A stretch of DNA of 64,000 nt, from the sequence record OL960577.1, one strand, 5' to 3'. Below, in pieces: positions 2,520 through 52,600 of this stretch. Below the pieces are notes generated by a model. The model saw only the letters and a list, made by a program, of their open reading frames with translations. It did no database searches and was not told where the DNA came from. The DNA is from Escherichia phage vB_EcoM_SA35RD. Position 1 is the first letter of the stretch. Each line of letters begins with the position of its first letter. Made by a program: the position numbers and the translations under genes.

Positions 2520-3620
2520 TTACGCTGTGAAGATTTTATCCCACATCGCAACAACTGCATCTCGGTTATACTTCTTCCATACTGCTTCAGCACGTTTAAC
2601 TCGAGCTTCGTATGTGTCAGTGAATTCTAATACAGCTTTTGTGTAAAGCGCAACTACTTCTTTCTTAGGAGTAGAGGAATCAATTTCTACACGCACAGTA
2701 TCTGGGTCATATTCGAATGTCGCGTGCGGATAATCCTTAAAAACTAACTGAATCACAGGGACACCTTTAGAGATGGCTTCAATAGAACTATTCTCTACCG
2801 TACCCGTGTCAGGACACGTATTGATAAGTGCTTTAGCTGTTTTAAGACGTTCCATGATTTCACTGTGTGGAGCATCAATAATAACAGGATATTTAGCTGG
2901 TGGTGCCCATTTACTAGGACAGTATCCTGCACCATTTTCGCCTAGTGCTTTAATCGCTTCAAGAGCAACATCAGTACGACGCATTTTAGTGTCATAACGT
3001 TGTGCACTAATAATCAGATCAGTCGCCGGAAGAACTTCAGGTTTCTCATTCAAACAAATAACCGGATAATCTTCGGCTTCAAACAACGGATTTGCTCGCC
3101 AATAATCATAATCAATTTTGTCAGTCAGACCTGAAGTCATATAACAATATTTGCGTTCAAATTCACGGAAGGCTTTAGTAGGAGCATAACTCTTACCACC
3201 GTTCTTATGAATTTGAATAGTCTGGTCCCAAATTTGAACAATGCCACGAGATACCGGTTCAAATGGTGTTGCCATAAAATTCTTATGAACTTTAGAGAGA
3301 CCTGCGTCTTTAATTGCCTGAACGGTTAGTTTGGTCGGTTCCATAGTAACAACAAAATCGTATTCATGGATGCCGGCTAGTTCAACAATCTTACGAGCCA
3401 TAGTATAACTCATACCTAGACTGAATTTAGTCAGATGACCAACAGGATGATGATTAACCTTCCAGTCACCAAACGTGTCATTATCAAAGCCGATATAATC
3501 AATATCAGCACCGATGGACACAAGATATTTCAATACATTTAAATGTACTGCTTCAAGACCACCTTGTACACGTTCTGGGTTAAATGGGACTGCGCGAGAT
3601 GGGATAAACATAACTTTCAT
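2520..3620 (-). CDS. GT-B fold glycosyltransferase, candidate DNA hmC arabinosyltransferase
   Basis: 366 aa; N-terminal MKVMFIPS...GGLE and C-terminal GTVENSSIEAISKGVPVI resemble GT1/GT4 motifs; occupies the gene 60/mobA slot of T4. Confidence 0.55.
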   Translation of the reverse strand: MKVMFIPSRAVPFNPERVQGGLEAVHLNVLKYLVSIGADIDYIGFDNDTFGDWKVNHHPVGHLTKFSLGMSYTMARKIVELAGIHEYDFVVTMEPTKLTVQAIKDAGLSKVHKNFMATPFEPVSRGIVQIWDQTIQIHKNGGKSYAPTKAFREFERKYCYMTSGLTDKIDYDYWRANPLFEAEDYPVICLNEKPEVLPATDLIISAQRYDTKMRRTDVALEAIKALGENGAGYCPSKWAPPAKYPVIIDAPHSEIMERLKTAKALINTCPDTGTVENSSIEAISKGVPVIQLVFKDYPHATFEYDPDTVRVEIDSSTPKKEVVALYTKAVLEFTDTYEARVKRAEAVWKKYNRDAVVAMWDKIFTA

Positions 3621-3631
3621 AATTAAGCCTT

Positions 3632-3664
3632 ATTAAAATTAAAATGAAGCTCCCGAAGGAGCTT
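3632..3664 (-). terminator. stem-loop with UUCG tetraloop followed by U-rich tract
   Basis: Plus strand AAGCTCC-CGAA-GGAGCTT preceded by A-run, just after topoisomerase stop. Confidence 0.45.
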
Positions 3665-5480
3665 AGGACATCCATTCTTTACGAAGTTCTGAATCATCAC
3701 CCATCAGCATTTCAAAGAGTTCTTTCCAATTTTCAGGAAGTTTAACTACGTCGTACACAGGGTTCTGAATCATTTCACGATACTCTGACTTTTCAAGGGA
3801 GCCCAATCCCTTGATGTATCGAATACTATGCTTAGGCAGTGTATCTTTAACTTCTTCATACTCAGCTACAGTATAAAACCATTTTTGAGTTTTGCCAATT
3901 TGTGCAATAATTACAGGTGTTTTAACAAAGCGAATACGTCCTTGTTCAAACAATTCAGGCCAATTACTAAAGAAAGCAAGCAAAGCAGGATAAATACTTC
4001 CAAGGCCGTCATGATCGGCATCGGTCATAATTGCAATATTACGATAGTTCGTATTCTCTGCCTTTTCACCAAGAATAAGACCTGTGATAGCACAGATATC
4101 AAAGAGCTCTTTGTTCTTCATCATATCAGCATATGACATACCCCAGCTATTCATCACCTTACCACGTAACGGGAATCCGCCGTGTAGTTCACGGTCACGA
4201 ACATCAATGAGATATCCAATTGCCGAATCACCTTCTGTTAAAAACAATGTCGTATCTGCATCTTTACCACATTGGTTAGCTTTAATATGCTTATGAACCT
4301 TAGCTTTAGTTGCCTTTTTAGCTGCTTTAGTTTCTGCAGCCTTTTCTGCCGCCAATTTACGAGCTAATGCTGCTTCAACAATAGGCATAATCAAGGCTTC
4401 ATTTTTAAGAAGTGCCTGAGCAATTTTCTTAGCATCTAATTGGATATGATTACGAATATCACCATACGTTGACGTTAAACGTTCTTTAGTCTGAGAATCA
4501 AAACGCATGTTGCTCATGTCTCTAATAAACATCAACATTGTGAGACATTCTTTAACACGAGCTTTAGTGACTTCAATACCATTATATTTCTTTTTAATGC
4601 CGGGCAAAAGATGTTCGCAGATATCATCCATTACACATTCAACATGATGACCACCATTTTTAGTATGGATGTTATTCACATAAGTTAAATGACGGAAGCC
4701 GTCTGGTGATGTTGTGAATGCTATAGAGACTTTATCATTTTCTTGAATGATATTATCTTCACCAAATTGTTTAGCAAATCGTTTAAAATTACCATCAACC
4801 TTTTTACCATTAAATGTGAACTTGATATCAGGATAAACGACTGCCAATGTTTGAAGTCGGTCTAAAGTAATATCTAAATAAATTTGAGATAAATTATGCT
4901 CTTCAAATGAAGAGAAATCAGGAGTGAAGATTACTTTAGTGCCTTTACCTTTAGATTTCTTAGAAGACCATGATTTGTTTTCCATTCCGTTTGAACAGTT
5001 AACAGTGATTTCATTTTCGCCATCTGACGTGATGCCTGTAAACAACGTAGAGAAGATATTAGTTAAACTACTTCCGACGCCGTTCATACCACCAGTCTTG
5101 CGTTCAGAATCATCACCAAAGTTACCACCAGCCTTTGGAATAGTCCAGGCTGCTACAGGACCAGGAATTTGTTCACCTGTTTGGTCGGTAACTAAACCTT
5201 GAGGAATACCACGTCCGTTATCTTCCACCGAAACTTGGTTATTTTTAATTTGCACATCAATTTTATTTGCAAACTTAAATGATGTACGAATAGCTTCATC
5301 AACCGAGTTGTCAATAATCTCATCGATTAATTTAACCAGACCAGGAACATATTCAACTTGTTGATATTTACCAAACAAAAAACGCTCGTGGGCTTCTTTA
5401 GCAGAAGAACCAATATACATACCACTGCGTTTCTTAATATGTTCTACATCTGACAATACCTTAATTTCATTTTTAATCAT
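3663..5480 (-). CDS. 39: DNA topoisomerase II large subunit, fused gp60+gp39 (GyrB-like ATPase)
   Basis: 605 aa single ORF, longer than T4 gp39 (516 aa), consistent with gene 60 and 39 fused; synteny. Confidence 0.75.
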   Translation of the reverse strand: MIKNEIKVLSDVEHIKKRSGMYIGSSAKEAHERFLFGKYQQVEYVPGLVKLIDEIIDNSVDEAIRTSFKFANKIDVQIKNNQVSVEDNGRGIPQGLVTDQTGEQIPGPVAAWTIPKAGGNFGDDSERKTGGMNGVGSSLTNIFSTLFTGITSDGENEITVNCSNGMENKSWSSKKSKGKGTKVIFTPDFSSFEEHNLSQIYLDITLDRLQTLAVVYPDIKFTFNGKKVDGNFKRFAKQFGEDNIIQENDKVSIAFTTSPDGFRHLTYVNNIHTKNGGHHVECVMDDICEHLLPGIKKKYNGIEVTKARVKECLTMLMFIRDMSNMRFDSQTKERLTSTYGDIRNHIQLDAKKIAQALLKNEALIMPIVEAALARKLAAEKAAETKAAKKATKAKVHKHIKANQCGKDADTTLFLTEGDSAIGYLIDVRDRELHGGFPLRGKVMNSWGMSYADMMKNKELFDICAITGLILGEKAENTNYRNIAIMTDADHDGLGSIYPALLAFFSNWPELFEQGRIRFVKTPVIIAQIGKTQKWFYTVAEYEEVKDTLPKHSIRYIKGLGSLEKSEYREMIQNPVYDVVKLPENWKELFEMLMGDDSELRKEWMS

Positions 5481-5523: not shown

Positions 5524-5545
5524 AGCAAAAAGGGCCGAAGCCCTT
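5524..5545 (-). terminator. intrinsic terminator-like hairpin (UUCG loop)
   Basis: AAGGGC-CGAA-GCCCTT preceded by A5 on plus strand (U-run on minus RNA). Confidence 0.5.
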
Positions 5546-5969
5546 ATTTAAATTTAATTTTCTGAAGTGCATCAATTGCAGCCAAACGCCCTTGTTCACT
5601 TTTAACTGTAATGACCACATCGCCTGATACGATCACCGAACCATCAATAAATTCTATAGAGCCTTTTTTGAAATCGACAGCTGTATCTGGTTCCTGAACT
5701 TCTTCAAAGAATTTAAATTCTGCACCATAAAGCAGAATATCACCTTGCATACTATGAATAGTTCGGCCATAATCGCCTACGGCTTCTACAGCAATAACCG
5801 AAACACCGTAACCAATCATCTCTTCCACAATAAAATCTTTGGACAATAAAGTAGTATGCAGATTAGTATTAAGACGTTTACCAGTCGTATTAAGAATTCT
5901 CAAGAAATTATCTTCTTGACCTTTGATAATATGATATTTCTTACCAACTTCAAAACCTTTAAAAGCCAT
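5544..5969 (-). CDS. hypothetical protein at goF position
   Basis: 141 aa ORF, same length and position as T4 goF; no motif recognised. Confidence 0.4.
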   Translation of the reverse strand: MAFKGFEVGKKYHIIKGQEDNFLRILNTTGKRLNTNLHTTLLSKDFIVEEMIGYGVSVIAVEAVGDYGRTIHSMQGDILLYGAEFKFFEEVQEPDTAVDFKKGSIEFIDGSVIVSGDVVITVKSEQGRLAAIDALQKIKFK

Positions 5970-5971
5970 AA

Positions 5972-6151
5972 TTATCCCTTCTTAAGTAAGTCGTAAAAAC
6001 CACCGTTCACATGTTTAGGAGCAGAAACCAGACGAGTAGACAGACGATGACATTCAGGGCAAACATCGTTTTCTCGTTCAGAAATCCTTTTAATTTTTTC
6101 ATATTCATGACCACAATCTTCAGATTGACATTTATAGTCGTATAACGGCAT
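5972..6151 (-). CDS. small zinc-ribbon protein (FmdB-like, CxxC...CPEC)
   Basis: Hand translation MPLYDYKCQSEDCGHEYEKIKRISERENDVCPECHRLSTRLVSAPKHVNGGFYDLLKKG (59 aa, below ORF-track cutoff); abuts flanking genes. Confidence 0.4.
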   Translation of the reverse strand: MPLYDYKCQSEDCGHEYEKIKRISERENDVCPECHRLSTRLVSAPKHVNGGFYDLLKKG

Positions 6152-6153
6152 TA

Positions 6154-6582
6154 TTATTCCTTAAAATGTGCTTTCAACATTTGATACAAAGACCATGCCT
6201 GGTCGTTATTTTCGATAGTAATCGACATCACCGGAAATTCAGACAATTCACCAAGTTCACTAGAATCTTGCTCTTCGGACGCTTGATATGGATTTCCAAC
6301 TTCGTCAAAGAACTCTGCTTCATTCGTGGAGAGCCAGATAAAGTTTTCATCAAGGATATCACCACCTGTTGCGTATCCAACCATGCCAGTAGATGTCACA
6401 ATTTTAGTAGGACGACCAAGATGGTCAACATCTAATACTTTAAATGGTTCCATGCCAAGACGTCGTGCATAAATCCCATTATCGGTGTGGTCCTTAATAA
6501 ACTCTTCTTGGGCACGTTTATCTTTAAATTGGTACCACGAGTTAACGCGGAATTTATTAGCCATTAGTAAGTTTCCTTCCAA
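6154..6582 (-). CDS. hypothetical protein (motB region)
   Basis: 142 aa ORF in minus-strand gene array. Confidence 0.4.
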
Positions 6583-6791: not shown

Positions 6792-6819
6792 AATATTCTC
6801 CTCTTGTTTTGATAGGTCT

Positions 6820-6847
6820 ATAGTATCATAGGCCATAGTTGTTGTAC
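6820..6847 (-). promoter_or_regulatory. T4-type early promoter-like element (GTACAA -35, TACTAT -10)
   Basis: Minus-strand GTACAA-16nt-TACTAT followed by AGACCTATC, SD and ATG. Confidence 0.4.
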
Positions 6848-6848
6848 A

Positions 6849-7373
6849 TCATTTTAGCAAAATAAAATCAACTTGTTCTGCCAATGAACGTCTAAACATT
6901 AATTGACAACTTCCGAGGATGAAATCAGGTGCTTCATAGACCGCGATGTAGTATCCTTTAGCTTTCAAGAGTTCAACATCCACCTGGTCATCAAACCATG
7001 CATAAACCGCGTCAACGCTTTCAAATCCAAAATAGAACCCTTGAGCCCAATCTTCACTCAATTCAAATGTGTACTCAATTCTATGGTATCTTAAGATATT
7101 TTGTTCAAGAAGTTTGTCTTCATTTACTGTAGGACGATTAGGGACATTATAGTTGTCGCCGTGATGGTAGAAGTTACCTGAGAGTATTCCATGCTTATCA
7201 AGGAACTCCCATGTTTCTTCAGAGTTGTCAGTGCCAGACCAACCGTAAGGTGAGCGAGGTTCTTTATTCCAAGAGGTTTCCCAAATTCTGACGGCTTTAC
7301 CGTCTTCGATAACAATTCCTGGTAATGATTCACGTTGAGTACAAAAACTACGTTCTACGCGGTAAACTAACAT
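6849..7373 (-). CDS. hypothetical protein
   Basis: 174 aa ORF; SD AGGAGA before ATG; promoter motif upstream. Confidence 0.45.
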   Translation of the reverse strand: MLVYRVERSFCTQRESLPGIVIEDGKAVRIWETSWNKEPRSPYGWSGTDNSEETWEFLDKHGILSGNFYHHGDNYNVPNRPTVNEDKLLEQNILRYHRIEYTFELSEDWAQGFYFGFESVDAVYAWFDDQVDVELLKAKGYYIAVYEAPDFILGSCQLMFRRSLAEQVDFILLK

Positions 7374-7398
7374 ATTATTCTCCTCTGGTTGATATGGT

Positions 7399-7427
7399 TA
7401 TAATATCAAAACCAGAGGAGAAGTAAA
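7399..7427 (-). promoter_or_regulatory. T4-type early promoter-like element
   Basis: GTTTAC-17nt-TATTAT; spacer is inverted repeat of downstream SD region. Confidence 0.45.
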
Positions 7428-7432
7428 CAACT

Positions 7433-7852
7433 TTATGCGAAAGCAGCTGGGCTATATTTTTTAATTTGGAATTCAGGAACTACCATGAACTGACCAGCGA
7501 AAACGATGTTATAAAGCTTAACACCATCTTCTACCCAACGGTCGCTAATAAATCCGGCGATTTGCTTAGTTTTCCATGGCGTTCCATCAGTTGCCGCAGC
7601 AATAGTGAATTCATGGTCTTTTTCAACAGAAACTGATCTGCATAGTCCCCATTTGAACGCTTTTTCTTCTGGCTCAATGAACTGGCTTGAGACGTAGCCA
7701 ATATTACCATTAGCATCACGAACTTTAACTTGGTTACGACCAAAAACCGGATCACTCACAGAAAGAACTTCAACCAACTTCCCGGCAACTTTAGAGCGAG
7801 AAGCAACAGATACATATACGTAATCACCTGTAGAGAGATTTACAATATTCAT
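7433..7852 (-). CDS. hypothetical protein, tandem paralog family member 1
   Basis: C-terminal motif SDRWVEDGVKLYNIVFAGQF shared with the two upstream ORFs. Confidence 0.5.
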   Translation of the reverse strand: MNIVNLSTGDYVYVSVASRSKVAGKLVEVLSVSDPVFGRNQVKVRDANGNIGYVSSQFIEPEEKAFKWGLCRSVSVEKDHEFTIAAATDGTPWKTKQIAGFISDRWVEDGVKLYNIVFAGQFMVVPEFQIKKYSPAAFA

Positions 7853-7861
7853 AATAATTCC

Positions 7862-8317
7862 TTAAGCTTTACGAGGAGACACATAGCGAGTGATTTCAGA
7901 TTCTTTAACAACTCGGAAGTCACCTAAGAATACGATATTGTATAACTTTTCACCATCTTCAACCCATTGGTCACTGATGAAGCCGCACATAATATCAGTT
8001 TTGTTTGGATAACCATATTCGTCGATGAAATCAAATTCTTTATCAGTCCGGAATTCAACGCCTTTGCAAAGGGCCCATTTGAACTGTACATTAGGTTCAG
8101 TAGAAGCAAAATGAGCGCTCACATGAGTTTCCAAGAATTTAGGACTTACGTAAGCGTACTGAGTTTCAGTTTTTCCAGAACTAGGAATGATTCGAACTTT
8201 AACTTCTTTAACACGTCCAGTGCCATTAGTACGAAGTCCTACCACTTCAACTAGACGACCTGCAGCTTTAGAACGAGATGCAGACGATACACGCTTAATT
8301 TCACCAATAGTAATCAT
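7862..8317 (-). CDS. hypothetical protein, tandem paralog family member 2
   Basis: Motif SDQWVEDGEKLYNIVFLGDFRVV; start moved to MITIGEIKR after SD, since longer ORF would start inside promoter. Confidence 0.5.
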   Translation of the reverse strand: MITIGEIKRVSSASRSKAAGRLVEVVGLRTNGTGRVKEVKVRIIPSSGKTETQYAYVSPKFLETHVSAHFASTEPNVQFKWALCKGVEFRTDKEFDFIDEYGYPNKTDIMCGFISDQWVEDGEKLYNIVFLGDFRVVKESEITRYVSPRKA

Positions 8318-8347
8318 AATTTCTCTCTCTTTGTTTAAATTGAATTC

Positions 8348-8377
8348 ATTATACTCCATCCATCCTTGGATGTACAA
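8348..8377 (-). promoter_or_regulatory. promoter cassette with internal palindrome (variant copy)
   Basis: TTGTAC ... CATCCA-TCCT-TGGATG ... TATAAT; both palindrome arms changed relative to other copies. Confidence 0.45.
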
Positions 8378-8379
8378 CA

Positions 8380-8874
8380 TTAATTAAGGATATTAACCAC
8401 AGCACTACGTGGAACTACACTAAAATCACCTGCATGAACAACGTTCAGAAGTTCAACACCGTCTTCAATCCACTGGTCAGTTACCCATCCATTTACTGGA
8501 CCTGCGAACGGACGTCGAATTGAAACATATTTACACAACAAATCAGTAGGCTCAATAGGCTTAATCAGGGTACCGTACATACAAGCGATATCCATATCAA
8601 TACAGATATCTTTAACGGGTTCTACTTCTTCAATCAACAGTTCAAAGTCGGTGCTTGGAAGGGCGGTAGTAGAAATTGTACCATATGAATTTTTAATTTC
8701 TAAGAATAACCAAGGGCCTTCAACTTGTTTGATGAAGTTAACAACAGTGAAACTATTACCTTGAGTGGCACCTAAAATTTCACAAAACTTTTCATAAGCT
8801 CGCACTGAAGCACCATACCAGTTGATTTGTTTTTCATCTTTCAGGATGTAAGTAGCCGTTGTATTGATATTCAT
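8380..8874 (-). CDS. hypothetical protein, tandem paralog family member 3
   Basis: Motif TDQWIEDGVELLNVVHAGDFSVVP; start moved to MNINTTAT after AGGAAA SD. Confidence 0.5.
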   Translation of the reverse strand: MNINTTATYILKDEKQINWYGASVRAYEKFCEILGATQGNSFTVVNFIKQVEGPWLFLEIKNSYGTISTTALPSTDFELLIEEVEPVKDICIDMDIACMYGTLIKPIEPTDLLCKYVSIRRPFAGPVNGWVTDQWIEDGVELLNVVHAGDFSVVPRSAVVNILN

Positions 8875-8904
8875 AATGTTTTCCTGTTTGGTTAAGATAG
8901 AAAG

Positions 8905-8934
8905 ATTATACTCCAACCATCCTTGGTTGTAAAC
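8905..8934 (-). promoter_or_regulatory. promoter cassette with internal palindrome
   Basis: GTTTAC-CAACCA-TCCT-TGGTTG-GAG-TATAAT; ~50 bp near-identical to copy at 50541-50590. Confidence 0.5.
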
Positions 8935-8939
8935 TGGTT

Positions 8940-9617
8940 TTATCGCTGTTTTACACTTAACGGGTCAGGATTCTCAGGGACATCTTCAAGGCCAAGCGCA
9001 TAACGCTGAGCATATTTTAACATCAAAATATCTTTAGCACAATCGTGAATACTATCATGGGCAACGAATCCTTTTAGCGTACCCATCGGTAATGGACACA
9101 TACTTAATCCTCGTGTCAACGAGTAAGCTTCGATTGCTGTACGAATATCACGTTGAGCCCAGAATTTAACCGGTTCTAATTTATCAGTATCAATATCTGG
9201 TTCAAGAACACCTTCATCACGATAGAGATCACGAATCAAATCTACCAAGATCGGGAAGTCAAAGCTCATACCACGGCACCACATCTGTGATTTCCATTGG
9301 TCAACTTTATTAGCTCGACAATAATATAAAAAGATTTTAATGCCTTCAAGCGTAGTGACATCGTCTTCAGACGGAGCCAGGTTTTTACGTGCTTCTGCTG
9401 ATTGTTCTTTCCACCATTTCATAGTGGATTTAGCGAAAACTCGCTTCCCTTTTTGAGAAGCTAAATTAAATTTAATTCGCTTACCTCGTTGAACAAGTTC
9501 TTCAAATGTTTCAACAACTTCAGGGTCCGAATTATATGCAATAACCGCAAGGTCAATAACAGCAGCTTTTGACGTATTGCCGAATGTTTCAAAATCTATA
9601 ATAACATCAGTGCTCAT
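8940..9617 (-). CDS. dexA: exonuclease A (DEDDh 3'-5' exonuclease)
   Basis: 225 aa, N-terminal IDFETFG motif; position before dda as in T4. Confidence 0.7.
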   Translation of the reverse strand: MSTDVIIDFETFGNTSKAAVIDLAVIAYNSDPEVVETFEELVQRGKRIKFNLASQKGKRVFAKSTMKWWKEQSAEARKNLAPSEDDVTTLEGIKIFLYYCRANKVDQWKSQMWCRGMSFDFPILVDLIRDLYRDEGVLEPDIDTDKLEPVKFWAQRDIRTAIEAYSLTRGLSMCPLPMGTLKGFVAHDSIHDCAKDILMLKYAQRYALGLEDVPENPDPLSVKQR

Positions 9618-9626
9618 AATTTTCTC

Positions 9627-10940
9627 TCAAATAAAATGGACGTCAAAACGACCACGAGTTGTGCCGACATACAATAACTGTTTAGCTAGTTCTGAATCGG
9701 CATAATGGATACACGGTGTATAAACAAAGGCCGTGTCAACAGACATACCCTGGGCCTTATGGAAGGTTGATACTGGTAGTGCCTTCACCTTAGTGAACAT
9801 GCGTTTAGCATCCCAGAATTCGCTCCATGGAGCTTTACCACCTTTATTCCAGAATTTGTATGTTTCTGCAGTCTTAGCCAAAAACAAATTGAATTTATAA
9901 AGCTCTTCTTCAGAAGAAATAACCTTTATATCTTCGCGGACGTATTCTTCATCATCGCCATATGTTTCTACTGTAAGATTCCAGTATCGTATCATATATT
10001 CGCCTGAAACACCACGTGCTTTAACAAATGTAGACGTTTCTACAGCATCTCGAATACGAACGAATTGCCCGTTATTGAAAAGCATTTCAGACATATTTTT
10101 GCCATCTAGCTTATACGTCTTGGTAAACGGCTCTTGTAGAACAATGACCTCGTCTTTAATAAATGGCTTTTCTGTTTCGAGAAGTTTTCGGCGAATAATT
10201 GAATTTAACTTGTCCACCGACTTATTTGTGAATGCCATCATTCGATTTTCGAAAAGGTCTTCAGGAGTTTTAACGACATTAAAATAGTTCATCATATACG
10301 ATTTAAGGTCTGTATATCCATGAACACCGTGTCCATCAACTACTTTATCGTAAATCCATTTGCCATTACGAATATCAGTCGCAACATCAATAATTGGTGC
10401 ATTGCTACGTTTAACTTCTGTAAGGTTGCATTGCACGAAGTCTTTGTGAGTGAAGAAAGGACTTAGATACGCAGTGGATTCGCCTGGGTCTACCGGTCGA
10501 ATTTGACATCGGTCGCCGATTCCAATTACTGTGCACCATTTAGGGATACTAGCTAACATTATTTTAAACAGAGAACGGTCACACATTGATGCTTCATCAA
10601 ATAACAATACACGGCACAAGGCTAAGTCGGGAACCTTTTTCTGTTCAAATAATACGTTTTCTTCGTATGTAGTTGGGTTGATTTTAAGAATGCTATGAAT
10701 AGTCGATGCTTCTTGACCTGCAAGTTTGCTTAGAACCTTTTTAGCAGCATGTGTAGGGGCTGCTAAAATAATACCTGATTCTCCAGAAGAAATAAGGGCT
10801 TCAACGATGAATCTAGTAAGGGTTGTTTTACCTGTACCAGCAGGTCCATTAATAGTTACGTGATGTTTCTTTTCTTTAATAGCTTTCATAACAACGTTGA
10901 AGGCGTTTTTCTGGCCTTCAGTCAAGTCATCAAATGTCAT
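9627..10940 (-). CDS. dda: Dda DNA helicase (SF1)
   Basis: 437 aa, Walker A GPAGTGKTT; T4 synteny. Confidence 0.85.
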   Translation of the reverse strand: MTFDDLTEGQKNAFNVVMKAIKEKKHHVTINGPAGTGKTTLTRFIVEALISSGESGIILAAPTHAAKKVLSKLAGQEASTIHSILKINPTTYEENVLFEQKKVPDLALCRVLLFDEASMCDRSLFKIMLASIPKWCTVIGIGDRCQIRPVDPGESTAYLSPFFTHKDFVQCNLTEVKRSNAPIIDVATDIRNGKWIYDKVVDGHGVHGYTDLKSYMMNYFNVVKTPEDLFENRMMAFTNKSVDKLNSIIRRKLLETEKPFIKDEVIVLQEPFTKTYKLDGKNMSEMLFNNGQFVRIRDAVETSTFVKARGVSGEYMIRYWNLTVETYGDDEEYVREDIKVISSEEELYKFNLFLAKTAETYKFWNKGGKAPWSEFWDAKRMFTKVKALPVSTFHKAQGMSVDTAFVYTPCIHYADSELAKQLLYVGTTRGRFDVHFI

Positions 10941-49275: not shown

Positions 49276-49580
49276 TATAATGTTCTCTCAAATTTGTGGA
49301 AGCATTTACGGCATTTCAATTTCAAGTTATCACTGGTCCAGTTAACCAGTTGGACTTGGATAGTTCCACATTCCGGACATGGATGTTTTGCTGCCGATTT
49401 GGCAGCATTTTCACGTCGTTCAACCATTTTCATTATTTCGTTCCATGCCGGAGGAACGAACTCTTCTTCACCATGAATTTTATCTCGCTGAACAAATTCA
49501 ATCTTTGAACTATCATCAATAAACTTAACTAAGCCATGATTAGTGCTCATATCAATATCCTCTAGAAGACGTAGGTTCAT
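49275..49580 (-). CDS. zinc-ribbon protein
   Basis: 101 aa; CPECG...CRKC. Confidence 0.4.
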   Translation of the reverse strand: MNLRLLEDIDMSTNHGLVKFIDDSSKIEFVQRDKIHGEEEFVPPAWNEIMKMVERRENAAKSAAKHPCPECGTIQVQLVNWTSDNLKLKCRKCFHKFERTL

Positions 49581-50527
49581 TATAACACCTCAATGGCATT
49601 TCGTAAACCATCCGCTTTCGCGTTCAGAGCTTTTAACGATTTAGTCTGTTCTTTAATCTGGGCTTCGACTTCTTTAAGACGAGATTTGAGATATTCACGT
49701 TCTTCGCTCAAGTTGTCAACTTTTTCTACTTTAGGTTCTTTAATAGTCTTAAGTTTATACTCGTTAGGGTTCTTCAACTTAATTTGAATGCGAGAACTGA
49801 ATAACATCGAACCGTTATCTTCGGTTTCGTCATACATTTCTACTACGTCCATGATTCTTAACATCATGCGAAGTTTATAAGACAGCGAACGAACGGTTTT
49901 ATTGTGCTTCTTAATTTCTTCAGCTTTCATGGTGCCGAGATTACGTGAGTAGTAATAAGGAACCTGGATATCAATTGACAATGATGCGTTACCATTACCT
50001 GTTGGTTTGAATACTGCAGTAACCCAATCTTTAACATGAACTTTATTTGTACGATCATCGCCACCAGTGAATAATTTACGAGAATGTTTAAAAAGCATAT
50101 TCACTTGGTTATTGAATTCACAAGCAAATTTATCAGCAAATTTAGTTTCAGGAATGGTAGATAACCAATCAGCCAAATGAGTCTTTTTAACATCATTAAC
50201 AATAGTGAATTCAACCAAATCGGTTTTAGATGTCACAGATTTAATAAAGCTCGGCTTCATAAAGTTTTTAATGTTATCGCGAGCTACAGTAGAAGATAAT
50301 AAACGAGAACGTTTGAACCATTGAAGCAGCGTCCCTAATGAATGAGAATATGCATTTTGAGTATCTTTACAGATATGATTTTCTTGGCCTGTGTATGTAA
50401 GAAAATCACGAAGAATACTATAAACCACACCTTTATGTGGAACATCAGTCCAAGCACCAGTAGCACGTTGAGCGTGAGCGTTAGCGATAAGACCGGCAAA
50501 GTATTCAATGTAATGTGAACGTGTCAT
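49580..50527 (-). CDS. hypothetical protein with C-terminal coiled coil
   Basis: 315 aa; heptad-rich C-terminus; palindrome-containing promoter cassette upstream. Confidence 0.5.
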   Translation of the reverse strand: MTRSHYIEYFAGLIANAHAQRATGAWTDVPHKGVVYSILRDFLTYTGQENHICKDTQNAYSHSLGTLLQWFKRSRLLSSTVARDNIKNFMKPSFIKSVTSKTDLVEFTIVNDVKKTHLADWLSTIPETKFADKFACEFNNQVNMLFKHSRKLFTGGDDRTNKVHVKDWVTAVFKPTGNGNASLSIDIQVPYYYSRNLGTMKAEEIKKHNKTVRSLSYKLRMMLRIMDVVEMYDETEDNGSMLFSSRIQIKLKNPNEYKLKTIKEPKVEKVDNLSEEREYLKSRLKEVEAQIKEQTKSLKALNAKADGLRNAIEVL

Positions 50528-50554
50528 AATATTTTCCTCTCGTTAAGATAGGTT

Positions 50555-50584
50555 CATTATACTCCAACCATCCTTGGTTGTAAA
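50555..50584 (-). promoter_or_regulatory. promoter cassette with internal palindrome
   Basis: GTTTAC-CAACCA-TCCT-TGGTTG-GAG-TATAAT. Confidence 0.5.
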
Positions 50585-50589
50585 CTGAT

Positions 50590-51549
50590 TTATGATTTTA
50601 ATGCATTCATTGCGTTAAAAAGTTTAGAGTACTGCAACTGGAGATTGGTCACCACCTGTTGAGCATCACGAAGCTTAGCTTGTGCTTTGTCAAGTTCAAC
50701 GGACAGTTGGTCTACAGTAGCCTTGATTTGGTTGTAATGATAATCTTCGGCCGGAAGAAGGTCATTAGAAACATTTAGTTTTACTGCCGACAGTTTGCAC
50801 ACATTTGGCAAACCTTTAAACATACCAGATTGTGCTGGAGAATATGCGCCTAGAACCTCTGCATTACCGACTGGTGTTGCTGTAATATTGCCTTCAAACA
50901 ATGCATTTTCCTTTTTAAGATTTTGATAGTATTCAGAGTCTTTGTGCCACCATGGCGCAGGAACCTTTTTACCAATAGATACACGAGCTTGGATAGCGAT
51001 ATGGCCCTTATTCTTGATAGGGTCGATAATATTAAGCTCACGAGAATAAATTGCTTTAATCTGGTGGATATTATCACCTAAAACTTCCAACGCTTGGTGA
51101 AATACACGAGCAACGTTATCATTCTTAGGTTTATACGTAAGAGTGAACTCATTCTCACTGATAACCATGATTTCCAACTTATCATAAGTATATTTCAAAT
51201 GTTTCATGTTAATTGCTTGAGGACGAATACGAGAAGCAATGGCCATCAGATTGTTAAGGTTATTCCGGAACTGCTTAGCGAAATATTGTCCTTCACCGCC
51301 AATACAAAAATTACGAAGTTTCTGTTTGGCCAATAAACGGCTGAACTCACCATTTTTAATGAACTCTTTAACGGGTGTGTTAGTAACACATTCAAATTGA
51401 GTAAACTTACGAGAATTAATCCCATAATACGAACAGATTTCCTCAATCTCTTCAGGAGTCTTTACAGGCATACGGATAGGATTAGGTCCTGGAGTATATG
51501 CGTTCGAGGTAAATTCTTTGATAAGTTCTCTACGTGTAATAAAAGCCAT
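50590..51549 (-). CDS. hypothetical protein with C-terminal coiled coil
   Basis: 319 aa; GAGGAA SD; palindrome promoter cassette upstream. Confidence 0.5.
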   Translation of the reverse strand: MAFITRRELIKEFTSNAYTPGPNPIRMPVKTPEEIEEICSYYGINSRKFTQFECVTNTPVKEFIKNGEFSRLLAKQKLRNFCIGGEGQYFAKQFRNNLNNLMAIASRIRPQAINMKHLKYTYDKLEIMVISENEFTLTYKPKNDNVARVFHQALEVLGDNIHQIKAIYSRELNIIDPIKNKGHIAIQARVSIGKKVPAPWWHKDSEYYQNLKKENALFEGNITATPVGNAEVLGAYSPAQSGMFKGLPNVCKLSAVKLNVSNDLLPAEDYHYNQIKATVDQLSVELDKAQAKLRDAQQVVTNLQLQYSKLFNAMNALKS

Positions 51550-51575
51550 TTTATATTCCTCATGTTGAAAAATTT

Positions 51576-51605
51576 ATTATACTCCAACCATCCTTGGTTG
51601 TACAT
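51576..51605 (-). promoter_or_regulatory. promoter cassette with internal palindrome
   Basis: GTACAA-CCAAGGATGGTTGG-AG-TATAAT. Confidence 0.5.
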
Positions 51606-52600
51606 CATTCCTTAAGAAGTTTTACTACCTGAATAAGATTAGCTCGTTCTGTTTTATTTTTACCATTTAAGCCTGCTAATCGTGAGATTTCATCGTCAGT
51701 CTGTTGAATAGTTACATTAAGTTCGTTAATCAAAGCTTCAAAGTATTTGATTTGCTCAGCATGTTTTGATTCAAATTTCTGAACCGGAATAACGTCTTGG
51801 TTTAGTTCATCAATAAGGTCTTTAAGAGCATCTTCTTGGTTGATATCATATTCAACTTCTTTTATTTCTTCAACGAGCTCGTCTTTATATCTAACGTCTT
51901 TTAGTCCTGGTGCTGGTCCTGAAATCTCTTCTTTAAGAGTACAAACATATCCAATACGGTATCCAATGCCGTCTCGCTTGATATCAACTTCGTCGATAAA
52001 TCCACAATGTTTAAGCCCGGAGCCGATTATGTCAAAATATCCTTGACGTCGTCCTTCAAACGTTACACGAACTACTAAGACAGTTTTACCTGCAACCTTT
52101 TGAAGCTCACATTTATAAAAGTCAGTTGAACCTGAATAACGTGGATGAGTTTTAAAGTTCATCTGACGATCTAGGCCCATTTGTAAGCGTGCTGTTACGG
52201 CCATAAAACGTGTTTGGTTCTCGTTAAGATGAGCAACAATCCATTTCAAAGGCATTTTACACTGTTCACGGCCGAACAAATCGGTACGTCCTAAATTACG
52301 CAGGATATTGTTAGAGTTAATCATCGACAGAACGTTAAGTTTATTCAGCGCGCTGAAGATTCCATCAGCCATTGATTTTCCATAACCTTTACACGCTTTA
52401 ATAAGTGCTCGCGGCAGATTAGTATAGATTTCAGACGGCATATGAAAATCAAATTTACTAACCAGTAATTGATGAACTTGGATAGCAATTTGTTCATAAT
52501 TAAGTGCTCTGCGATCGTTATGGTCTTTAAACCACACTTTAATCTGTGAAGCACATAAACCGTTAATTTCATGTTTTACCGCATCAGATGTAATGCTCAT
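51605..52600 (-). CDS. hypothetical protein with C-terminal coiled coil
   Basis: 331 aa. Confidence 0.5.
   Translation of the reverse strand: MSITSDAVKHEINGLCASQIKVWFKDHNDRRALNYEQIAIQVHQLLVSKFDFHMPSEIYTNLPRALIKACKGYGKSMADGIFSALNKLNVLSMINSNNILRNLGRTDLFGREQCKMPLKWIVAHLNENQTRFMAVTARLQMGLDRQMNFKTHPRYSGSTDFYKCELQKVAGKTVLVVRVTFEGRRQGYFDIIGSGLKHCGFIDEVDIKRDGIGYRIGYVCTLKEEISGPAPGLKDVRYKDELVEEIKEVEYDINQEDALKDLIDELNQDVIPVQKFESKHAEQIKYFEALINELNVTIQQTDDEISRLAGLNGKNKTERANLIQVVKLLKE

What the first reader, a model, noticed from the sequence alone, without database searches (positions are those of the whole stretch)
7433..8874. Three tandem paralogous genes with a conserved C-terminal motif
ORFs 7433..7852, 7862..8317 and 8380..8874 share S/TD-x-W-V/I-EDG-x-K/E-L-x-N-I/V-V-F/H-x-G-x-F-x-VVP at the C-terminus and diverge elsewhere. 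Two are preceded by copies of the palindrome promoter cassette. Tandem diversified families in phage early regions are often host-interaction or anti-defence factors.
Basis: seen in the sequence. Interest (0 to 1): 0.45.

Follow-up and report, generated by a model that had tools for sequence, protein, structure and literature searches.

The report
Known MotB/MotB.1 phage early-gene trio

Summary
Three minus-strand ORFs (7433..7852, 7862..8317, 8380..8874) share a C-terminal core, D-x-W-(V/I)-E-D-G-x-x-L-x-N-(I/V)-V-x-x-G-x-F-x-V-V. This is far beyond chance: BLASTP gives E about 1e-10 for the motif-only pairs, and all three pass Pfam PF17613 "motB".

The window is the start of a Mosigvirus (RB69-like) genome. 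The genes are motB.1 (164 aa), motB (151 aa, 48% identical to T4 MotB) and a second, Mosigvirus-specific motB copy (139 aa). Two copies of one early-promoter cassette precede motB.1 and motB. The third gene has only a ribosome-binding site overlapping the motB stop codon.

All of this is published. Patterson-West et al. 2021 describe the shared C-terminal domain, the different N-terminal domains, and RB69's "two motB + one motB.1". Kim et al. 2025 describe the LSm-like N-terminus of MotB.1.

The most likely function follows from T4 MotB: an abundant early DNA-binding protein that alters H-NS–DNA complexes. The roles of the other two genes are unknown.

By-products of this check:
- The T4 reference motB.1 (119 aa) and the RB69 reference motB.1 plus its "29-aa peptide" look like single-base indel artefacts of intact 143- and 164-aa genes.
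- The shared domain models as an SH3-like barrel, not an OB-fold.
- A linker motif travels only with the MotB.1-type domain.

The parts
8380..8874 (-). Gene C: motB.1 homologue, 164 aa. It has an N-terminal LSm-like domain (residues ~1-85), a disordered linker carrying a conserved motif, and a short MotB.1-type C-terminal barrel (residues ~109-164). The protein is acidic (pI 4.5).
   Evidence: phrog_2333 E 1e-82 and Pfam PF17613 at 35.2 bits. 47% identical over 99% of its length to the intact 143-aa T4 MotB.1 (P0011). RB69 annotation calls it motB.1. AF2 model pLDDT 80. pI.
7862..8317 (-). Gene B: motB orthologue, 151 aa. It has a basic KOW/SH3-like N-terminal barrel (residues 1-62, pI of the N-terminal part 10.2), a flexible linker (66-74), and a C-terminal barrel with a beta-hairpin insertion (76-151).
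7433..7852 (-). Gene A: second motB copy (RB69p010 type), 139 aa. It has the same two-domain layout as B but a shorter loop and linker, and a near-neutral N-terminal domain (pI 6.1). It is found only in the Mosigvirus group.
   Evidence: 43% identical to B over 145 aa. PF17613 at 75.6 bits and phrog_1671 E 7e-51. tblastn finds 206 phage records at >=80% identity, none at 60-80%, and every listed row at 87.8% identity or more has two places in the record.
8383..8550 (-). Shared C-terminal domain in C (residues 109-164): PTDLLCKYVSIRRPFAGPVNGWVTDQWIEDGVELLNVVHAGDFSVVPRSAVVNILN.
   Evidence: Alignment A5. Five strands with a 3-10 turn before the last one.
7865..8083 (-). Shared C-terminal domain in B (residues 79-151). 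Relative to C it carries a ~20-residue hairpin insertion.
   Evidence: Alignment A5. AF2 strands 86-98, 104-120, 123-130, 133-138, 142-145.
7436..7657 (-). Shared C-terminal domain in A (residues 66-139).
   Evidence: Alignments A1 and A5.
8551..8601 (-). Linker motif IDMDIACMYGTLIKPIE in C (residues 92-108; the following residue, P109, opens the C-terminal domain). It is a candidate short linear motif.
   Evidence: pLDDT <50 in the model. Present in 96 of 125 proteins with the MotB.1-type domain and 0 of 114 with the MotB-type domain.
8905..8933 (-). Early promoter of motB.1: TTTACA-17-TATAAT, with the cassette CCAAGGATGGTTGGAGTATAAT.
   Evidence: 11 of 12 consensus matches. Cassette search. 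Inverted repeat CAACCA/TGGTTG at 8914-8929.
8348..8376 (-). Early promoter of motB: TGTACA-17-TATAAT, with the cassette CCAAGGATGGATGGAGTATAAT. It overlaps the stop codon region of motB.1.
   Evidence: Inverted repeat CATCCA/TGGATG at 8357-8372.
7859..7863 (-). Shine-Dalgarno AAGGA of gene A. It overlaps the TAA stop of gene B (7862..7864) and lies 9 nt intergenic, so A is co-transcribed with B and probably translationally coupled to it.
   Evidence: Read directly from the sequence. The scan lists no promoter-like site on the minus strand immediately upstream of A's start codon; the minus-strand site nearest upstream is B's own promoter at 8376..8348.

Best explanation
The three ORFs are the motB.1 - motB - motB' block of a Mosigvirus (RB69-like T-even phage). 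They are members of the MotB family (Pfam PF17613).

Each protein is a small N-terminal beta-barrel joined by a flexible linker to one shared C-terminal beta-barrel:
- B and A have a KOW/SH3-like N-terminal barrel.
- C has an LSm-like N-terminal barrel.

They are made immediately after infection, from two copies of one sigma-70-type early promoter. A rides on B's transcript.

By homology with T4 MotB, B most likely binds DNA tightly and without sequence specificity. This probably happens through its basic N-terminal half (inference from charge). In doing so it coats and compacts host and phage DNA and alters how H-NS/StpA sit on it, which de-represses H-NS-silenced genes and modestly raises burst size.

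A (near-neutral) and C (acidic) carry the same C-terminal barrel. I infer they are directed to the same partner or assembly as B and modify or diversify its action. Their own activities are unknown.

Shown here: paralogy, domain layout, gene models, promoters, synteny and distribution. Taken from the literature on T4: DNA binding, the H-NS effects and toxicity. Inferred: which domain binds DNA, and any interplay among the three.
For: Identity of the phage: 99.4% DNA identity to a T-even phage, and the same gene order as Mosigvirus p000v and RB69.

Family membership: Pfam and PHROG hits. B versus T4 MotB is 48% identical, E 2e-44. C versus the intact T4 MotB.1 is 47% identical over 99% of its length.

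Charge asymmetry: B's N-terminal part has pI 10.2, A's 6.1, and C as a whole 4.5.

Expression: early promoters confirmed.

Conservation: the tandem order MotB.1-type then MotB is kept in 14 other T-even loci. There are three genes only in Mosigvirus-type loci, and one gene (KOW N-terminus plus MotB.1-type C-terminal domain) in distant relatives.

[quoted passage not shown] The function of T4 MotB is. The LSm-like N-terminus of MotB.1 is in PMC12152347.
Against: No experiment exists for any Mosigvirus copy. B is only 48% identical to T4 MotB.

Deleting T4 motB.1 gave no phenotype, and MotB.1 had little effect in an RNA reporter assay. That work appears to have used the truncated reference allele, however.

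A motB knockdown barely changes the T4 transcriptome, so the benefit to the phage remains undefined.

Which domain binds DNA is not known. The published OB-fold assignment for the C-terminal domain, which would favour DNA binding there, disagrees with my SH3-like reading of the AF2 secondary-structure order. I could not superpose isolated domains to settle it.
Confidence: 0.85

Rival explanations
1. The shared C-terminal motif is a chance or compositional match between unrelated small ORFs.
For: Between C and A/B only about 30-36 residues align in BLASTP.
Against: E is about 1e-10 per pair and z is 14-16 against shuffles. All three pass a curated Pfam threshold. With a profile, the homologous stretch extends to about 57 residues (LCKxVxI ... 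end). The domain is conserved in hundreds of phage genomes.
Confidence: 0.01
2. The shared C-terminal barrel is a protein-docking or oligomerisation module, not the DNA-binding part. The three proteins would co-assemble, or compete for one partner such as MotB multimers or H-NS/StpA-DNA complexes. The variable N-terminal domains (a basic KOW barrel, a neutral KOW barrel, an acidic LSm-like barrel) would supply different activities.
For: The C-terminal domains of B and C are mildly acidic (pI 4.85 and 4.89), while B's N-terminal half is strongly basic.

The MotB.1-type domain is almost invariant (GWVTDQWIEDGVELLNVVHAGDFSVVPRS) although it is fused to at least four unrelated N-terminal architectures of 143-267 aa.

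The structural neighbours are Tudor/chromo/KOW barrels, which usually read peptides or proteins.

A is co-transcribed with B and probably translationally coupled to it.
Against: No interaction data exist. The authors could not detect a DNA-independent MotB-H-NS contact. The C-terminal domains of T4 MotB and of A are slightly basic (pI 8.6 and 8.1). No multimer prediction could be run here.
Confidence: 0.25
3. The proteins mimic transcription or translation factors. Their layout of a KOW barrel plus a second barrel resembles NusG/Spt5 or EF-P/eIF5A, and they would act on RNA polymerase or the ribosome. This is the original meaning of 'modifier of transcription'.
Confidence: 0.07
4. They are dedicated anti-defence proteins, inhibitors of a specific bacterial immune system, diversifying in tandem under an arms race.
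For: The location is a dispensable early region. The N-terminal domains are swapped and copy number varies between genera. H-NS counts as a xenogeneic silencer.
Against: The domain that would be expected to diversify under an arms race, the shared one, is nearly invariant. No defence system is linked to MotB in the papers read. MotB did not change CRISPR locus expression.
Confidence: 0.07

Closest known systems
Bacteriophage T4 MotB (NP_049626; Pfam PF17613)
   Same: Gene B is its orthologue: 48% identity over the full length. It has the same KOW-like N-terminal domain with the V-S-x-x-S-R-S-K-A-A-G motif, the same C-terminal core, an early promoter, and the same neighbourhood between dexA and cef.
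   Different: B is 11 residues shorter in the linker. The genes are in a different order: T4 has dexA-motB.2-motB.1-motB-cef, and this phage has dexA-motB.1-motB-motB'-motB.2-cef. There are no experimental data for the Mosigvirus protein.
T4 MotB.1 and the phage LSm-like fold family (GoF, MotB.1, Frd.2; Kim et al. 2025, PMC12152347)
   Same: Gene C has the MotB.1 N-terminal domain (47% identity to the intact T4 protein) and the MotB.1-type C-terminal domain. It lies directly upstream of motB, as in T4. Two GoF-family genes lie nearby in the window (6154..6564 and 5544..5969; phrog_622).
   Different: C carries an extra ~20-residue linker motif (IDMDIACMYGTLIKPIEP) that is absent from T4 MotB.1. 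The T4 protein studied in the literature is the 119-aa reference form, which lacks most of the shared domain.
RB69 genes RB69p010, RB69p011 (motB), RB69p013 (motB.1) and RB69p012 (29-aa peptide); Patterson-West et al. 2021, PMC7827196
   Same: The locus is the same, at almost the same coordinates. The paper already records two motB, one motB.1 and the shared C-terminal domain.
   Different: In the window motB.1 is one intact 164-aa ORF. The RB69 reference has two extra T's in T-runs inside the gene, which split it into 132-aa and 29-aa pieces. The paper's 'Category 3' peptide is therefore the tail of a broken gene or a sequencing error.
KOW / Tudor / chromo-like SH3 barrels (NusG, Spt5, 53BP1 tandem Tudor, EF-P domain I)
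   Different: There is no sequence-level relation. A profile of the shared domain finds only 35 clusters among 1.84 billion representatives at E <= 0.001. The roughly 25 convincing ones are small (43-251 aa); the sampled members trace to T-even and related phages, but the origin of the metagenomic representatives was not checked. This is fold resemblance only, not membership.
Other phage antagonists of H-NS (T7 gp5.5, T4 Arn)
   Same: They are possible functional analogues: early phage proteins that relieve H-NS silencing.
   Different: Those proteins bind H-NS directly. MotB was seen with H-NS only in the presence of DNA. The sequences and folds are unrelated.

Membership tests
MotB family (Pfam PF17613 / phrog_1671) | Score above the curated Pfam gathering threshold (25 bits) | tested here: met
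   A 75.6 bits, B 131.1 bits, C 35.2 bits.
MotB family (Pfam PF17613 / phrog_1671) | Conserved C-terminal core: G-(W/F/Y)-(I/V)-(T/S)-D-Q-W-(V/I)-E-D-G ... L-x-N-(I/V)-V ... G-x-(F/Y)-x-V-(V/I)-P | tested here: met
   Invariant D, W, E, L, N, V, G and V columns across 32 non-redundant domains, including all three window proteins.
MotB family (Pfam PF17613 / phrog_1671) | N-terminal KOW-like barrel with the V-S-x-x-S-R-S-K-x-A-G motif (MotB proper, 'Category 1' of PMC7827196) | tested here: met
   Met for A and B. Not met for C, which therefore belongs with MotB.1 ('Category 2/4'), not with MotB proper.
MotB family (Pfam PF17613 / phrog_1671) | Position in the dispensable early region between dexA and cef of a T-even phage, with an early promoter | tested here: met
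MotB family (Pfam PF17613 / phrog_1671) | Tight non-specific DNA binding, co-purification with H-NS/StpA on DNA, toxicity on expression | not testable with these tools
   Known only for T4 MotB. For B there is only indirect support: 48% identity and a basic N-terminal half.
MotB.1 / phage LSm-like fold family (PMC12152347) | N-terminal domain homologous to the T4 MotB.1 N-terminal domain | tested here: met
   C is 47% identical over 99% of its length to the 143-aa T4 MotB.1 (P0011). phrog_2333 E 1e-82.
MotB.1 / phage LSm-like fold family (PMC12152347) | Bent five-stranded antiparallel sheet (LSm-like) in the N-terminal half | tested here: inconclusive
OB-fold (cold-shock-like) DNA-binding domain, as proposed for the MotB C-terminal domain in PMC7827196 | Five-stranded barrel with the connecting helix between strands 3 and 4 | tested here: not met

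The most novel reading that the evidence does not exclude
The shared C-terminal barrel may be a common docking or oligomerisation module. The basic MotB, the near-neutral MotB' and the acidic MotB.1 would then form one interacting set that tunes how the phage coats and compacts DNA and displaces H-NS. The D-x-D-hydrophobic-x-x-M-Y linker motif, which travels only with the MotB.1-type barrel, would be the peptide that recruits a host or phage partner. If so, published negative results for T4 MotB.1 would need repeating, because they used a form lacking most of this barrel.
Probability: 0.2. Interest if true: 0.5.

Novelty: already known. Interest (0 to 1): 0.15.

Why it matters
As a discovery it matters little. 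The family, its shared C-terminal domain and even the RB69 gene count are in print and in Pfam/PHROGs.

The practical value lies in corrections:
1. The T4 reference motB.1 carries one extra G that 13 other T4/RB55/RB59 records lack. The real protein is therefore 143 aa and has a complete shared domain. Functional work based on the 119-aa reference form may have tested a crippled protein.
2. The RB69 '29-aa peptide' category is the tail of a split gene.
3. The shared domain models as an SH3-like barrel rather than an OB-fold, which shifts the expectation of which half binds DNA.

The function of MotB.1 and of the second MotB copy is still open.

Tried and rejected
1. Chance match: rejected.

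2. The longer ORF starts (8380 for B, as annotated in p000v; 8916 for C): rejected. They translate the promoter cassette itself (both give '..GWMEYN..'). They lie upstream of the predicted start site of the gene's own promoter, and T4 MotB aligns from residue 1 of the short form.

3. The C-terminal domain as a recognisable duplicate of the KOW N-terminal domain: hhalign of the two profiles gives probability 0.7% and E 0.08 over 14 columns, so there is no support.

4. Wider distribution of the shared domain: a profile search of 1.84 billion representatives found only 35 clusters at E <= 0.001. The weakest ones (600-860 aa repeat proteins matching about 23 profile positions) look spurious.

5. 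afdb50 fold search: the library was not available.

7. The three genes after the other two promoter-cassette copies (49580..52600): no detectable paralogy.

8. The Son et al. 2021 NAR paper on MotB compaction was not in the searchable library. I cite that property only through a citing paper and from my own knowledge.

Full report
WHAT IS THERE

The window is the left end of a Mosigvirus genome (RB69-like T-even phage). The region 6800-9700 is 99.4% identical to Escherichia phage vB_EcoM_JQD51 and 96-98% identical to many others. Window coordinates match the RB69 reference to within two bases. The gene order on the minus strand is dda (9627..10940), dexA (8940..9617), C (8380..8874), B (7862..8317), A (7433..7852), motB.2 (6849..7373), cef and goF.

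CHECK OF THE OBSERVATION

The three ORFs exist as described.

BLASTP gives A-B 43% identity over 145 residues (E 2e-31), A-C 55% over 29 residues (E 1.5e-10) and B-C 44% over 36 residues (E 3e-10). Smith-Waterman scores lie 14-42 standard deviations above 2000 shuffles.

All three pass the gathering threshold of Pfam PF17613 'motB'. They also hit the PHROG MotB families. C's best match is phrog_2333.

Only C has a different N-terminal half.

GENE MODELS AND EXPRESSION

The longer ORFs (B from 8380, used in the p000v RefSeq annotation; C from 8916) simply translate the promoter cassette. T4 MotB aligns from residue 1 of the 151-aa form.

Promoter-like sites with 11/12 and 10/12 consensus matches lie at 8933..8905 and 8376..8348. 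Both contain CCAAGGATGG(A/T)TGGAGTATAAT. This string occurs four times in the window against none expected by chance. Each copy has a 6+4+6 inverted repeat in the spacer.

Gene A has no promoter. Its AAGGA Shine-Dalgarno overlaps the TAA stop of B, nine bases upstream of A's ATG. A is therefore co-transcribed with B and probably translationally coupled to it.

IDENTITY

- B is the orthologue of T4 MotB (48% identity, E 2e-44).
- C is the orthologue of T4 MotB.1 (47% identity over 99% of its length to the intact 143-aa form).
- A is a second MotB copy. In tblastn, 206 phage records match it at >=80% identity and none at 60-80%. The 553 matches below 60% are the single MotB of other genera. Every listed row at 87.8% identity or more has two places per record.

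A census of 23 IMG/VR loci plus the reference loci gave three patterns:
- Mosigvirus-type genomes have three tandem genes with the shared domain.
- 14 other T-even loci have two: a MotB.1-type gene with a variable N-terminus of 143-267 aa, directly followed by motB.
- More distant relatives have one gene that joins a KOW-like N-terminus to the MotB.1-type C-terminal domain.

A profile of 32 non-redundant C-terminal domains was searched against 1.84 billion representative proteins. It found only 35 clusters at E <= 0.001. About 25 are convincing, and these are small proteins (43-251 aa). The most distant convincing ones have a textbook KOW motif at the N-terminus. The sampled members trace to T-even and related phages. 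The origin of the metagenomic representatives was not checked.

STRUCTURE

AlphaFold2 with family alignments gave confident two-domain models.
- B: pLDDT 87; barrel 1-62, disordered 66-74, all-beta domain 76-151.
- C: pLDDT 80; N-terminal domain 1-85 with strands and helices, linker 86-107 below pLDDT 50, five-stranded domain 108-164.

In both models the C-terminal domain has four strands, a 3-10 turn, then a fifth strand. That is the SH3-like order, not the OB order. I therefore doubt the published HHpred-based OB-fold assignment. I could not search isolated domains, and no solved structure exists.

The BFVD search found only MotB-like proteins of other Straboviridae and a 'KOW domain-containing protein'. 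The N-terminal and C-terminal profiles show no significant similarity to each other.

CHARGE

B is basic (pI 8.8), with an N-terminal half of pI 10.2 and a C-terminal domain of pI 4.85. A is near neutral (pI 7.8, N-terminal half 6.1). C is acidic (pI 4.5). This makes non-specific DNA binding plausible for B, as for T4 MotB (pI 9.2). It is less plausible for A and unlikely for C.

WHAT IS KNOWN

Patterson-West et al. [quoted passage not shown] They suggest one gene may have arisen by duplication of the other. [quoted passage not shown]

T4 MotB is toxic when expressed, doubles burst size, and binds modified and unmodified DNA without detectable specificity. It copurifies with H-NS and StpA only in the presence of DNA, changes the H-NS footprint, and up-regulates 75 host genes, about a third of them in the H-NS regulon. 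A citing paper describes it as compacting the nucleoid.

Kim et al. 2025 (PMC12152347) place the MotB.1 N-terminal domain in an LSm-like fold family with GoF and Frd.2. They found no phenotype for a T4 motB.1 deletion.

The finding is therefore already known.

MOST LIKELY MECHANISM

B acts as T4 MotB does. It is an abundant early DNA-coating protein that remodels nucleoid/H-NS complexes in favour of the phage. This is homology-based, and I put it at about 0.65 for B itself.

A and C share B's C-terminal barrel. In the MotB.1 lineage that barrel is almost invariant while the N-terminal domains are swapped freely. This argues that the barrel recognises one fixed partner and the N-terminal domains supply different activities. 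That is my inference, not a shown fact (probability about 0.2-0.25).

BY-PRODUCTS

1. The T4 reference (NC_000866.4 / AF158101.6) has ATTGGAAGAT where T4T has ATTGAAGAT. The extra G ends MotB.1 at ..GWVTDQWIGRWR* (119 aa). The rest of the domain, EDGVELLNVVHAGEYSVVPRSAVVAILN*, is intact in the next frame. Thirteen other T4/RB55/RB59 records encode the intact 143-aa protein in one piece. Only the two reference records need two pieces. The intact sequence is on 256 contigs in the protein collection. The 2025 study quotes NC_000866.4 coordinates for its motB.1 amber construct and reports a 13.8-kDa MotB.1, and it does not mention a frameshift.

2. The RB69 reference has two extra T's in T-runs inside motB.1 relative to the window. 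These produce RB69p013 (132 aa) and the 29-aa RB69p012. All other Mosigvirus loci examined have the intact gene.

3. A linker motif, [DEN]-x-D-[IVLT]-x-x-[MLAT]-Y (IDMDIACMYGTLIKPIEP in C), occurs in 96 of 125 proteins with the MotB.1-type domain and in none of 114 with the MotB-type domain. Its position in the protein varies.

4. Chimeric proteins join B-type or T4-type fronts to A-type tails at the conserved FKW or DQWVEDG strings. They exist only on short metagenomic contigs, so they may be natural recombinants or assembly artefacts.

VERDICT

It is a named family whose paralogy, domain sharing and RB69 copy number are published. Interest is low. The corrections to the reference gene models are the most useful output.

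Noticed in passing
L002 (T4 NC_000866.4) 3221..3651 minus = record 7221..7650; compare L027 (T4T): The T4 reference motB.1 (119 aa) carries one extra G (ATTGGAAGAT versus ATTGAAGAT) that truncates the protein inside the conserved DQWIEDG core. Thirteen other T4/RB55/RB59 records encode an intact 143-aa protein. The 2025 functional study of MotB.1 quotes the reference coordinates for its motB.1 amber construct and a 13.8-kDa protein.
   Followed up: yes
L003 (RB69 NC_004928) 4377..4873 minus; window 8380..8874: The RB69 reference motB.1 is split into RB69p013 (132 aa) and RB69p012 (29 aa) by two extra T's in T-runs. The window and other Mosigviruses have one 164-aa ORF. The '29-aa Category 3 peptide' of Patterson-West 2021 is therefore the tail of a broken or mis-sequenced gene.
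   Followed up: yes
window 8551..8601 (minus), residues 92-108 of the motB.1 homologue: A conserved linker motif (IDMDIACMYGTLIKPIE, followed by P109 of the C-terminal domain; general form D-x-D-hydrophobic-x-x-M-Y...P) is predicted to be disordered. It is found in 96/125 proteins with the MotB.1-type domain and 0/114 with the MotB-type domain, at varying positions and sometimes twice. It is a candidate short linear binding motif and is not mentioned in the papers read.
   Followed up: partly
window 8357..8372 and 8914..8929 (also cassette copies at 50556..50577 and 51576..51597): The early-promoter cassette has a 6+4+6 inverted repeat between -35 and -10. It reads CAACCA-TCCT-TGGTTG in three copies and CATCCA-TCCT-TGGATG in the motB copy. 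The single difference is compensated on both arms, which hints that the palindrome itself is under selection.
   Followed up: partly
window 7378..7422 (minus strand, upstream of motB.2 at 6849..7373): A perfect 13-bp inverted repeat (TTCTCCTCTGGTT / AACCAGAGGAGAA, 19 nt apart) brackets a promoter-like site (TTTACT-16-TATTAT). Its downstream arm contains the motB.2 Shine-Dalgarno. Read-through transcripts could hide the ribosome site in a hairpin, while transcripts started inside the loop could not. The same principle is known for T4 genes e, 49 and I-TevI (own knowledge).
   Followed up: no
proteins P0151, P0155, P0224 (short metagenomic contigs): Chimeric MotB proteins: a B-type or T4-type N-terminal part fused to the A-type C-terminal tail, with junctions at the conserved FKW or DQWVEDG strings. 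They could be recombinants between tandem paralogues or assembly artefacts.
   Followed up: no
window 5544..5969 and 6154..6564 (minus): Two GoF-family genes (phrog_622) lie close together, separated by a small FmdB-like ORF (5972..6151). The first also hits the MotB.1 family phrog_2333 weakly (E 6e-4) in its N-terminal half. This fits the published link between the GoF and MotB.1 N-terminal domains.
   Followed up: no
window 49580..52600 (minus): Three consecutive ~315-331-aa genes. The last two are preceded by the same promoter cassette as motB and motB.1. No paralogy is detectable among them by BLASTP.
   Followed up: partly
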